A stretch of 64,000 nt of DNA from Escherichia coli (GCF_030013205.1 NZ_CP122648.1), one strand, 5' to 3'; shown: positions 27,545 to 28,280, numbered from the stretch's first letter. Translations and numbers: made by a program. The notes: generated by a model from the sequence alone, not told the origin.

Positions 27545-27642
27545 AACTCCTGAGCAGGCGGCACTATGCCGCTTTCATAGGAGTTCTGAATGCTGGTGCT
27601 TTCTGTATGGCATAACCATGCCTCTAACGGTTAAGTGCCTGC
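27545..27642. repeat. Direct repeat copy 1 (~98 bp): imperfect hairpin plus the 3' end of the antitoxin gene
   Basis: About 87% identical to 29362..29459 by eye alignment; the first 67 bp differ at only 4 positions. Confidence 0.7.
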
Positions 27643-27914
27643 AGCACATGTTGCGGATCATTGGCAATCGCTCGCAGCAAAGCCTTTGCAGGCCCAGTCG
27701 GTGAACGTCGCCCCTGCTCCCAGTTACGCAACGTGTCTACGCTTACGGAAATAAGTTCGGCAAATTTAGATTGTGACAACCCTGAAGCGCGGCGTATTTC
27801 TTTGATTTTCATAGCATCAACTTCAAAAGTCCGTGAAGGGTGTCGCGTTCCTTCAATAATTTCATTCATCTGGGCCATGCTGTGAGTCAACCGCTCAAAA
27901 AGTGCCTTATCCAT
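27624..27914 (-). CDS. HTH (XRE-type) antitoxin, HigA-2-like (96 aa)
   Basis: Helix-turn-helix ...IKEIRRASGLSQSKFAELISVSVDTLRNWEQGRRSP...; start codon directly abuts the upstream toxin stop (TGG-TAA-ATG). Confidence 0.75.
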   Translation of the reverse strand: MDKALFERLTHSMAQMNEIIEGTRHPSRTFEVDAMKIKEIRRASGLSQSKFAELISVSVDTLRNWEQGRRSPTGPAKALLRAIANDPQHVLQALNR

Positions 27915-28226
27915 TTACCACCTCGTATTTAACAACCGGAGCATTGCTTTTTCCTGGGGAGACAGATCATCTTTAATACCCTTACGATAAATAAGCAGTA
28001 ATCTGATCTCATAATGTTTAACCTGATGAAAGTAAATAACCCTGACACCAGCACGTTTCCCCTTTCCTCCTGACACCCATCGAACCTTTCTTAACCCACC
28101 AGTTTCAGGTATTACCTCACCATAGTCAGGATTCAAGGCCAGGAAAAACTGAAAACGACTGAATTCATCGTCGGTCAGCAGTTTTTGAACATCTTCAGTA
28201 AAAATTTCCGTTTCGATGAAGAGCAT
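27915..28226 (-). CDS. RelE/ParE-superfamily toxin, HigB-2-like (103 aa)
   Basis: MLFIETEIFTEDVQKLLTDDEFSRFQFFLALNPDYGEVIPETGGLRKVRWVSGGKGKRAGVRVIYF... closely resembles HigB-2-type toxins as I recall them (GGLRK...GKGKR.G.R.IY core); toxin-first gene order as in higBA. Confidence 0.75.
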   Translation of the reverse strand: MLFIETEIFTEDVQKLLTDDEFSRFQFFLALNPDYGEVIPETGGLRKVRWVSGGKGKRAGVRVIYFHQVKHYEIRLLLIYRKGIKDDLSPQEKAMLRLLNTRW

Positions 28227-28263
28227 AATTATACGCCATTGGCTTAGAGTAACAATCCTTTTT

Positions 28264-28280
28264 GTACGTCATTGACGTAC
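28264..28280. promoter_or_regulatory. Perfect 17-bp palindrome GTACGTCA-T-TGACGTAC upstream of the toxin gene; candidate antitoxin operator
   Basis: Seen directly in the sequence, 38 bp upstream of the toxin ATG; a TATAAT hexamer lies immediately 5' of that ATG. Confidence 0.5.

What the first reader, a model, noticed from the sequence alone, without database searches (positions are those of the whole stretch)
27624..28280. HigB-2/HigA-2-like type II toxin-antitoxin module with a perfect 17-bp palindromic operator candidate
The toxin gene precedes the antitoxin (higBA-type order), and the toxin stop directly abuts the antitoxin start (TGG-TAA-ATG). The toxin carries the GGLRK...GKGKR.G.R.IY core I associate with HigB-2-type RelE/ParE toxins; the antitoxin is an XRE-type HTH protein. 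Thirty-eight bp upstream of the toxin ATG is a perfect palindrome GTACGTCA-T-TGACGTAC (28264..28280), the kind of site a dimeric HTH antitoxin would bind for autoregulation. A TATAAT hexamer lies immediately 5' of the toxin ATG and no Shine-Dalgarno is evident, so the toxin message may be leaderless or weakly translated.
Basis: partly seen in the sequence, partly recalled or inferred. Interest (0 to 1): 0.55.

Follow-up and report, generated by a model that had tools for sequence, protein, structure and literature searches.

The report
HigBA2-type toxin–antitoxin operon, two operators
This is an ordinary, uncharacterised E. coli copy of the well-studied HigB2/HigA2 toxin–antitoxin pair, and the palindrome upstream is almost certainly the antitoxin's own binding site, because it matches the operator already solved for the Vibrio cholerae version.

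Summary
The window holds a toxin gene (27915..28226, minus strand) and an antitoxin gene (27624..27914) joined as TGG-TAA-ATG. A perfect 17-bp palindrome lies at 28264..28280, and a TATAAT lies one base before the toxin ATG.

The toxin matches solved V. cholerae HigB-2 (E 1.5e-19) and keeps all four of its active-site residues. The antitoxin is a NadS/HigA-2 family helix-turn-helix (HTH) protein by sequence and by predicted fold.

The palindrome GTACGT-N5-ACGTAC has the same layout as the footprinted and crystallised HigA2 operator, TGTACGC-N5-GCGTACA. The core TACGYCAWTGRCGTA recurs just upstream of HigB-2 homologues in several phyla.

The leaderless idea does not fit. The TATAAT ends two bases before the A of the ATG, so a start from it would fall inside the reading frame. 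The real promoter is unresolved.

The module sits on the chromosome of 2636 of 5426 complete E. coli genomes. It is deleted in K-12 and is already annotated as a RelE/ParE toxin plus NadS. I found no experimental work on it.

Verdict: a new member of a known kind, of low interest.

The parts
27915..28226 (-). higB2-like toxin gene (103 aa, RelE-fold mRNA interferase family, Pfam PF06296 group)
   Evidence: ORF. phmmer hit to PDB HigB-2 at E 1.5e-19, residues 2-99. Active-site residues R49, R62, Y80 and K82 are invariant in alignment A1. dN/dS about 0.09 across genera.
27624..27914 (-). [quoted passage not shown]
   Evidence: NF041265 NadS 60.4 bits against a cut-off of 60. HigA-2 in PDB at E 8e-9. 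Pfam HTH_3 1.9e-9. AF2 model pLDDT 89.7, with top Foldseek hits 5jaa and 8a0x.
27918..27923 (-). AGGTGG Shine-Dalgarno for the antitoxin, inside the last toxin codons; the stop and start abut (TAA-ATG)
   Evidence: Sequence. AGGTGGTA[AG]ATGGAT is conserved in the intact Enterobacteriaceae loci whose stop and start abut.
28264..28280 (.). Operator O1: perfect palindrome GTACGTCA-W-TGACGTAC
   Evidence: Same GTACGY-N5-RCGTAC layout as the footprinted and crystallised V. cholerae HigA2 operator. Invariant island in an alignment of 20 Enterobacteriaceae upstream regions. Exact core matches occur only upstream of toxin genes.
28232..28246 (.). Operator O2: imperfect palindrome TAAGCCAATGGCGTA (6 of 7 pairs); its centre is 33 bp from the centre of O1
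   Evidence: Nearly invariant in Enterobacteriaceae. Erwinia carries an 11-bp insertion in the spacer between O1 and O2.
28228..28255 (-). Sigma-70-like promoter candidate P2: TTGTTA (28255..28250), 16 nt, TATAAT (28233..28228), with O2 between the hexamers
   Evidence: It is the only promoter-like site in 27300..28600. Its position relative to the operator is the same as described for V. cholerae. The expected start, about 28222..28220, lies downstream of the toxin ATG (inference from geometry).
28246..28272 (-). Weaker promoter candidate P1: ATGACG (inside O1), 15 nt, TACTCT. In most other genera it reads TTGACG-16-TA(A/C/T)TAT
   Evidence: Read from the alignment; not experimentally tested.
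28350..28366 (-). Conserved box CTGGAAAGCGCCTCGCA, 124-140 nt upstream of the toxin ATG; function unknown, possibly a promoter element
   Evidence: Present upstream of the toxin in 20 Enterobacteriaceae loci, whatever the neighbouring gene. Paralogous copies lie upstream of yiiF and yiiE.
27545..27642 (.). 98-nt element with a 19-bp-stem hairpin directly after the antitoxin stop, probably the 3' end of the operon. A second copy lies at 29362..29459

Best explanation
This is a chromosomal type II toxin-antitoxin operon of the HigB2/HigA2 family.

Inferred from the V. cholerae and A. baumannii homologues:
- The toxin is a RelE-fold, ribosome-dependent mRNA endonuclease.
- The antitoxin neutralises it with its N-terminal helix and linker.
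- The antitoxin dimerises through its C-terminal XRE-type HTH domain.
- The dimer represses the operon by binding inverted repeats of the form GTACGY-N5-RCGTAC.

Shown here: this locus has two such sites. O1 is perfect and lies at 28264..28280. O2 has one mismatch, lies at 28232..28246, and is centred 33 bp (about three helical turns) from O1. Together they cover the whole promoter-proximal 50 bp.

Also shown here, with inference as marked:
- The antitoxin has its own Shine-Dalgarno inside the toxin's last codons, and its start abuts the toxin stop.
- The toxin has no Shine-Dalgarno.
- The expected outcome (inferred) is an excess of antitoxin over toxin from one transcript.

Not resolved: which promoter produces the toxin-encoding mRNA.
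For: Toxin. It matches PDB HigB-2 at E 1.5e-19 and 42% identity over residues 2-99. The mutagenesis-defined residues R51, R64, Y82 and K84 (PMC5416850) align with R49, R62, Y80 and K82, which are invariant in A1. dN/dS is about 0.09 with synonymous sites saturated.

Antitoxin. NadS NF041265 scores at the cut-off. HigA-2 in PDB scores E 8e-9 over residues 5-89. Pfam HTH_3 matches. The AF2 model shows a helix at 3-21, a linker at 22-36 and the HTH at 37-94. Its best Foldseek hits are HigA2 in 5jaa and 8a0x.

Operator.
- The V. cholerae operator TGTACGC-N5-GCGTACA was defined by footprint and crystal structure (PMC11006873). O1 is GTACGT-N5-ACGTAC.
- Exact TACGYCAWTGRCGTA occurs in 23 of the 53 related loci. 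Every occurrence is within 70 nt upstream of the toxin start, and none lies elsewhere in about 356 kb.
- Variants of the palindrome sit upstream of homologues in Opitutae, Spirochaetes, Omnitrophota, Acidobacteria and Moraxella.
- O1 and O2 are invariant islands in otherwise diverged intergenic DNA.
- The recognition helix and the half-site change together: TLRHWERGDR goes with TAATCC/GGATTA half-sites, complete in L050 and partial in L048 and L051.

Gene order and coupling are conserved.

Autorepression by the antitoxin and by the complex has been shown for the A. baumannii homologue (PMC5906591).
Against: - Nothing was tested at the bench for this locus: not toxicity, neutralisation or DNA binding.
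- The Pfam PF06296 hit on the toxin itself is weak (E 0.006), and the NadS score is only just at the cut-off.
- Two of the four base-contacting residues of V. cholerae HigA2 differ here (R68 to D, E71 to R). Read-out of the half-site therefore cannot be identical.
- V. cholerae has a single operator. The two-site arrangement here has no experimental precedent in this family.
- No predicted sigma-70 promoter can both be strong and include the toxin ATG.
- A toxin labelled HigB-like (Salmonella SehA, from a different family) was recently reported to lack RNase activity and to inhibit RNase III instead (PMC12817084). A mechanism inferred from family membership is therefore not guaranteed.
Confidence: 0.85

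Rival explanations
1. The antitoxin is mainly a domesticated transcription factor. It would control the divergently transcribed alpha/beta-hydrolase gene (28455..29363), or other genes, through O1 and O2. The toxin would be a poorly expressed or decaying passenger.
For: - The hydrolase and the TA pair are divergent neighbours in E. coli, Citrobacter, Pseudocitrobacter, Klebsiella, Kluyvera, Salmonella arizonae and some Enterobacter.
- The antitoxin is more conserved (84-89% aa) than the toxin (68-76%).
- The toxin reading frame is disrupted while the antitoxin is intact in several species (L014, L017, L027, L028, L032, L034). In one E. coli strain it is interrupted by IS1.
- The toxin has no Shine-Dalgarno and no good promoter that includes its ATG.
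Against: - O1 and O2 are equally conserved in genera where the hydrolase is not a neighbour (L008, L013, L015, L016, L026, L027, L032). The palindrome also follows HigB-2 homologues in unrelated phyla.
- The sites lie 175-223 bp from the hydrolase start but 5-54 bp from the toxin start.
- The toxin's dN/dS is about 0.09, and all four catalytic residues are kept.
Confidence: 0.08
2. The palindrome is the site of an unrelated host regulator, or a chance or structural inverted repeat, and is not the antitoxin's operator.
For: - No binding data exist for this locus.
- The central TGACGT/ACGTCA resembles motifs bound by other factors (my own knowledge, not tested here).
- Two of the four base-contact residues differ from V. 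cholerae HigA2.
Against: - The half-site and spacing match the solved HigA2 operator.
- The motif travels with the TA pair across phyla.
- Half-site changes accompany changes in the recognition helix.
- The chance expectation is about 0.017 for the intergenic region.
- No T-run follows the palindrome, so it is not a terminator.
Confidence: 0.04
3. The toxin is toxic but not as a ribosome-dependent mRNase. It might act by binding and inhibiting another enzyme, as reported for Salmonella SehA and RNase III.
For: There is a precedent that a HigB-like toxin lacks RNase activity (PMC12817084).
Against: - SehA/SehB belong to a different family: SehB is 142 aa and was modelled on Shigella HigBA, PDB 5YCL.
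- This toxin keeps all four residues whose alanine substitution lowers VcHigB2 activity 170- to 3000-fold.
Confidence: 0.05

Closest known systems
Vibrio cholerae HigB2/HigA2 (superintegron; PDB 5JA8, 5JAA, 8A0X; PMC5416850, PMC11006873)
   Same: - Toxin-first order.
- Toxin 42% identical, with the same four active-site residues and the same Gly/Lys-rich beta2-beta3 loop.
[quoted passage not shown]
- Operator half-site GTACG(C/T) with an N5 spacer.
- At O2, the operator lies between the -35 and -10 hexamers, as in V. cholerae.
   Different: - Two operator sites here, 33 bp apart; V. cholerae has one.
- The half-site ends in T rather than C at O1.
- R68 and E71 of HigA2 are D and R here.
- The locus is a syntenic chromosomal site, not an integron cassette.
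- The -10-like hexamer is only one base from the start codon.
Acinetobacter baumannii plasmid HigBA2 (pAB120; PMC5906591)
   Same: Same family: the plasmid tblastn search gives 307 Acinetobacter records. It is autorepressed by the antitoxin and more strongly by the complex, and the toxin is an RNase.
   Different: It is plasmid-borne and stabilises plasmids. Its operator was not mapped at base level in that paper. The E. coli module is chromosomal and single-copy.
NCBIfam NF041265 'NadS family protein' / YiaG-like HTH proteins (COG2944; PMC11980606)
   Same: The antitoxin scores at the NadS cut-off, and RefSeq names it nadS in thousands of E. coli genomes. The mBio 2025 survey describes YiaG-like HTH antitoxins paired with PF06296 toxins.
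   Different: I could not trace what 'NadS' refers to functionally. The relE-yiaG subfamily in that paper has toxins with extended disordered N-termini, which this toxin lacks.
Proteus vulgaris Rts1 HigB/HigA and E. coli K-12 HigBA (YgjN/YgjM); Salmonella SehAB
   Same: Toxin-first order and an HTH antitoxin that autorepresses.
   Different: Different Pfam families (PF05015 and PF09907), a different antitoxin architecture (SehB is 142 aa) and different operators. The SehAB lead was checked and rejected.

Membership tests
HigB-2 toxins (Pfam PF06296 group, RelE fold) | Significant sequence similarity to the structurally solved V. cholerae HigB-2 | tested here: met
   E 1.5e-19, residues 2-99 against 23-120 of 9tv9_C; 42% identity in A1.
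HigB-2 toxins (Pfam PF06296 group, RelE fold) | Match to the Pfam PF06296 profile | tested here: inconclusive
   i-E 0.0062, 17.2 bits, below a confident threshold. Some 70%-identical homologues carry a precomputed PF06296 hit.
HigB-2 toxins (Pfam PF06296 group, RelE fold) | Active-site residues Arg51, Arg64, Tyr82, Lys84 (VcHigB2 numbering) | tested here: met
   They align with R49, R62, Y80 and K82, all invariant in A1.
HigB-2 toxins (Pfam PF06296 group, RelE fold) | Toxin gene upstream of the antitoxin gene in one operon | tested here: met
   TGG-TAA-ATG junction. The order is conserved in every related locus where both genes could be called.
HigB-2 toxins (Pfam PF06296 group, RelE fold) | Growth inhibition through ribosome-dependent mRNA cleavage | not testable with these tools
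   Needs expression and cleavage assays.
HigA-2 / NadS antitoxins | NCBIfam NF041265 score at or above the curated cut-off | tested here: met
   60.4 bits against a cut-off of 60, so only marginally above.
HigA-2 / NadS antitoxins | C-terminal XRE-type HTH dimerisation and DNA-binding domain with the fold of HigA2 | tested here: met
   HTH_3 1.9e-9. The Foldseek TM-score normalised to the target is 0.78-0.83 against the HigA2 C-terminal domain (5j9i). The top hits are 5jaa and 8a0x.
HigA-2 / NadS antitoxins | N-terminal segment (helix, then an extended linker) that binds the toxin | tested here: inconclusive
   The model has a helix at 3-21 and a linker at 22-36, and the phmmer alignment extends to residue 5. 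Binding itself was not tested.
HigA-2 / NadS antitoxins | Base-contacting residues Arg68, Glu71, Asn72, Arg77 of the recognition helix | tested here: inconclusive
   The Asn and the second Arg are conserved. The first two positions are Asp and Arg here (VDTLRNWEQGR against SRTLENWEQGR).
HigA2 operator | Inverted repeat GTACGC-N5-GCGTAC upstream of the toxin gene | tested here: met
   O1 is GTACGT-CAATG-ACGTAC, with one transition per half-site. O2 is TAAGCC-AAT-GGCGTA.
HigA2 operator | A single operator lying between the -35 and -10 hexamers | tested here: not met
   There are two sites here. O2 has that position relative to TTGTTA/TATAAT. O1 lies upstream.
HigA2 operator | Specific binding by the antitoxin dimer and repression | not testable with these tools
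   Needs EMSA, footprinting or reporter assays.
Sigma-54 promoter (considered for the conserved box 28350..28366) | TGG-N9-(T)GC(A/T) -24/-12 geometry | tested here: met
   TGGAAAGCGCCTCGCA. The same regular expression recovers glnAp2 at 52713.
Sigma-54 promoter (considered for the conserved box 28350..28366) | Sigma-54 occupancy in genome-wide maps | tested here: not met
   The paralogous boxes upstream of yiiE and yiiF exist in K-12. The main texts of the ChIP and gSELEX papers I searched list no site at these genes. Supplementary tables were not searched.
Salmonella SehA/SehB | Orthology of the toxin and antitoxin | tested here: not met
   SehB is 142 aa, has different termini and was modelled on 5YCL HigBA. 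The primer-encoded N- and C-termini do not match.

The most novel reading that the evidence does not exclude
In E. coli and Pseudocitrobacter, the near-consensus promoter embedded in O2 (TTGTTA-16-TATAAT, or TTGTCA-16-TATTAT) may start transcription a few bases downstream of the toxin AUG.

Such a transcript cannot make toxin. It can still make antitoxin from the internal AGGTGG site.

Toxin-encoding mRNA would then come only from a weaker or conditional upstream promoter. The candidates are P1 inside O1 and the conserved CTGGAAAGCGCCTCGCA box, which has sigma-54-like geometry and which this operon shares with yiiE and yiiF.

This would be a built-in transcriptional way for a toxin-first operon to keep antitoxin in excess, with both promoters under the two operators.
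Probability: 0.12. Interest if true: 0.45.

Novelty: new member of a known kind. Interest (0 to 1): 0.2.

Why it matters
The value is mostly as annotation. About half of complete E. coli genomes carry this module, including E. coli W and O127:H6, O25b:H4 and O111:H8 strains. RefSeq often labels the toxin only 'hypothetical protein', and K-12 has lost the module.

Tying the locus to the structurally solved HigBA2 system gives a ready-made, testable model:
- the catalytic residues;
- the neutralising N-terminus;
- the operator half-sites.

The two-operator layout, and the promoter that overlaps the start codon, are small open questions about how toxin-first operons set their toxin:antitoxin ratio. 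Nothing here challenges current understanding.

Tried and rejected
1. Salmonella SehAB as the characterised orthologue. I recalled it as lying near fdhE and an esterase gene. It was rejected: SehB is 142 aa, its termini differ, and it was modelled on Shigella HigBA.

2. Sigma-54 promoter for the conserved box at 28350..28366. The geometry fits and the regular expression recovers glnAp2. The main texts of the K-12 ChIP and gSELEX papers I searched list nothing at the paralogous yiiE and yiiF boxes. A Salmonella regulon paper mentions neither STM4030-4033 nor yiiE/yiiF. The box is left unexplained.

3. Anti-phage defence role. The toxin has no PADLOC family, and the antitoxin gets only generic HTH hits. 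The PHROG hits are to families of unknown function.

4. Origin of the name 'NadS'. Two literature searches found only a note that a nadS gene is expressed in K-12.

5. Searches by protein accession found no paper.

6. Rfam. No RNA family lies in 26-32 kb.

7. Leaderless mRNA from the TATAAT. Rejected on spacing for this locus. In distant relatives (L029, L043) the -10 lies 6-7 nt before the ATG, so leaderless starts are plausible there.

8. Recent horizontal insertion. The module is syntenic with the hydrolase across genera. K-12 is a 4258-bp deletion derivative, missing window 27024..31281. The locus is therefore ancestral and variably lost, not a recent arrival.

Full report
**1. What is in the sequence.**
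On the minus strand, a 103-aa ORF (27915..28226) is followed directly by a 96-aa ORF (27624..27914).

- The junction reads AGG-TGG-TAA-ATG. The toxin stop therefore abuts the antitoxin start, and AGGTGG is placed to act as the antitoxin's ribosome-binding site.
- The palindrome GTACGTCA-W-TGACGTAC occupies 28264..28280. Thirty-seven bases separate it from the ATG at 28226.
- TATAAT lies at 28233..28228, followed by a single T and then the ATG.
- No Shine-Dalgarno precedes the toxin ATG.

**2. More than chance.**
- Simulation gives about 0.017 perfect palindromes (arms of at least 8 nt, spacer 0-3 nt) per 228-bp intergenic region.
- The degenerate core TACGYCAWTGRCGTA, with up to two mismatches, has exactly two hits in the 64-kb window. 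These are 28265..28279 (O1, no mismatch) and 28232..28246 (O2, one mismatch). Both lie just upstream of the toxin gene.

**3. Identity of the proteins.**

Toxin:
- It hits the solved V. cholerae HigB-2 chains at E 1.5e-19 over residues 2-99.
- Hadzi et al. showed by alanine substitution that Arg51, Arg64, Tyr82 and Lys84 of VcHigB2 are needed for activity (PMC5416850).
- In the alignment these are R49, R62, Y80 and K82 of the window protein. They are invariant among ten homologues.
- The Pfam PF06296 hit on the single sequence is weak (E 0.006). NCBIfam and PADLOC have no family for it.

Antitoxin:
- It scores 60.4 bits against NCBIfam NF041265 'NadS', whose cut-off is 60.
- It hits HigA-2 in the PDB at E 8e-9 over residues 5-89 and Pfam HTH_3.
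- An AlphaFold2 model (pLDDT 89.7) has a helix at 3-21, a linker at 22-36 and a five-helix HTH domain at 37-94.
- Its best Foldseek hits are HigA2 in the HigBA2 complex (5jaa), HigA2 in the HigB2-HigA2-operator complex (8a0x), and the HigA2 C-terminal domain (5j9i; TM-score normalised to the target 0.78-0.83).

**4. The palindrome is the family's operator.**

- For V. cholerae, copper-phenanthroline footprinting and a crystal structure define one operator, TGTACGC-N5-GCGTACA. It starts after the -35 hexamer and extends over the -10 hexamer (PMC11006873).
- O1 is GTACGT-CAATG-ACGTAC. It has the same half-site with one transition, and the same N5 spacing.
- I fetched 53 loci encoding relatives of the toxin from one genome per species.
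- The exact core TACGYCAWTGRCGTA occurs in 23 of them. Every occurrence is within 70 nt upstream of the toxin start, and there are none elsewhere in about 356 kb.
- Variant palindromes sit in the same place in Opitutae (TACTTCATTGAAGTA), Omnitrophota (TACGCTATTAGCGTA), Spirochaetes, Acidobacteria and Moraxella.
- Across 20 Enterobacteriaceae loci, synonymous sites of the two genes are saturated (median dS above 1.4). O1 and O2 are nevertheless invariant islands separated by a freely varying spacer.
- In Erwinia, an 11-bp insertion, one helical turn, lengthens the spacer between the two sites.
- The recognition helix is TLRNWEQGR in most members. Members with TLRHWERGDR have TAATCC/GGATTA half-sites instead, complete in L050 and partial in L048 and L051. 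This is the pattern expected if this helix reads this repeat.
- Of the four base-contacting residues of VcHigA2, Asn72 and Arg77 are conserved here. Arg68 and Glu71 are Asp and Arg.

**5. The second site and the promoter problem.**

O2 (TAAGCCAATGGCGTA) lies between TTGTTA (28255..28250) and TATAAT (28233..28228). This is the only sigma-70-like promoter found in 27300..28600, with 10 of 12 consensus matches and a 16-nt spacer.

This is positionally the same arrangement as in V. cholerae and in distant relatives. In those relatives the -10 hexamer lies 6-7 nt before the ATG (L029, L043), so a leaderless mRNA is plausible there.

In the window only one base separates the -10 hexamer from the ATG. 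A transcript from this promoter should therefore begin near 28222..28220, inside the ORF. It could not encode the toxin. That is why I reject the leaderless idea for this locus.

A second candidate, P1, uses the right arm of O1 as its -35 hexamer.
- In most genera it reads TTGACG-16-TA(A/C/T)TAT, which is respectable.
- In E. coli it reads ATGACG-15-TACTCT, which is poor.

A third conserved element is CTGGAAAGCGCCTCGCA (28350..28366).
- It lies 131-143 nt upstream of the toxin start in 20 Enterobacteriaceae loci, whatever the neighbouring gene.
- Copies also precede yiiF (26228..26244) and, in degenerate form, yiiE (26667..26682).
- It has sigma-54-like GG-N10-GC geometry.
- The main texts of the K-12 sigma-54 ChIP and gSELEX papers I searched list no site at yiiE or yiiF.

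Because the toxin ORF is under purifying selection (dN/dS about 0.09; about 0.10-0.15 within the E. coli/Pseudocitrobacter clade), some transcript must include its ATG. Which one does is unresolved.

**6. Genomic setting.**

- The window is E. coli chromosome between yiiE/yiiF-fdhE and fabY.
- The module is present once, at this position, in 2636 of 5426 complete E. coli genomes. Carriers include E. coli W and O127:H6, O25b:H4 and O111:H8 strains.
- RefSeq labels the antitoxin nadS. It labels the toxin either 'hypothetical protein' or 'type II toxin-antitoxin system RelE/ParE family toxin'.
- One published E. coli genome comparison lists proteins named HigB-2/HigA-2 (PMC10304320). I did not check that these are this locus.
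- K-12 lacks window 27024..31281 and keeps only the first 39 codons of the neighbouring 617-aa ORF.
- The divergent alpha/beta-hydrolase (LipP1/Aes-like) is the neighbour in several other genera at 74-82% identity. The locus is therefore old and variably lost.
- Homologous toxins are common on Acinetobacter, Ralstonia, Klebsiella and Salmonella plasmids and rare in phages.

**7. Mechanism, with its basis.**

Shown here:
- family membership;
- conserved catalytic residues;
- gene order and coupling;
- two conserved operator-like sites matching the solved operator;
- purifying selection on both genes.

Inferred from characterised homologues:
- ribosome-dependent mRNA cleavage;
- neutralisation by the antitoxin N-terminus;
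- dimeric HTH binding and autorepression, strengthened by the toxin (PMC5416850, PMC11006873, PMC5906591).

Inferred from the sequence alone:
- weak toxin translation;
- two antitoxin dimers bound about three helical turns apart.

Unknown:
- the transcription start;
- the role of the third box;
- any physiological role.

**8. Verdict.**
This is a correct and well-read finding of an ordinary, already-annotated type of element. It is an experimentally uncharacterised E. coli member of the HigB2/HigA2 (PF06296/NadS) family, with minor regulatory peculiarities. Interest is low.

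Noticed in passing
window 28350-28366 (-); also 26228-26244 (-) and 26667-26682 (-): A 17-nt box, CTGGAAAGCGCCTCGCA, is conserved 131-143 nt upstream of the toxin start in 20 Enterobacteriaceae loci. It recurs upstream of the two ribbon-helix-helix genes yiiF and yiiE, including in K-12. It has sigma-54-like GG-N10-GC spacing, but the main texts of the K-12 sigma-54 ChIP and gSELEX papers list no site there. Its function is unknown.
   Followed up: partly
window 27545-27642 and 29362-29459: A 98-nt direct repeat (88% identical), each copy with a 19-bp-stem hairpin, brackets the antitoxin-toxin-hydrolase block. 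The copy at 27545-27642 overlaps the last 19 nt of the antitoxin gene. There are one or two copies per E. coli genome. A strain without the TA and hydrolase genes (LS45) keeps a single copy.
   Followed up: partly
window 29532-31385 (-): A 617-aa ORF with low G+C (0.39) has no Pfam, NCBIfam, PADLOC or PHROG match. It is annotated as 'transposase' plus a partial hypothetical protein where it is frameshifted in other strains. K-12 retains only its first 39 codons after a 4258-bp deletion (window 27024-31281).
   Followed up: partly
window 28310-28319, 28399-28408, 28434-28443 (-): Three direct repeats of TTTTGCTGKA lie in the intergenic region between the toxin gene and the divergent hydrolase gene. 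They may be a regulatory array for the hydrolase.
   Followed up: no
loci L014, L017, L027, L028, L032, L034; E. coli NZ_AP022049: The toxin reading frame is broken in several species, and interrupted by IS1 in one E. coli strain. The antitoxin gene, and in the enterobacterial loci the O1/O2 sites, remain intact. Across genera the antitoxin is more conserved (84-89% aa) than the toxin (68-76%). I recall that antitoxins usually diverge faster than their toxins; I did not check this.
   Followed up: partly
window 26988-27266 (-) and 27318-27539 (-): Two small ORFs (92 and 73 aa) lie downstream of the antitoxin and have no family match. They are present in this E. coli lineage and in Klebsiella spallanzanii, and absent from E. 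coli strains with the simpler yiiE-nadS arrangement.
   Followed up: no
window 52713 (+), 59406-59659, 60688-60806, 46636-46759, 20767-20825: Context landmarks confirm the chromosomal region: a TGGCACAGATTTCGCT match that I take to be glnAp2 (from memory), CsrC, Spot 42, STnc490 and the fdoG SECIS element.
   Followed up: no
E. coli K-12 BW25113 (not in the window): A 2025 paper reports the first expression evidence for a PGAP-annotated nadS gene in K-12. K-12 lacks this locus, so it carries another NadS-family gene elsewhere. I did not locate it.
   Followed up: no
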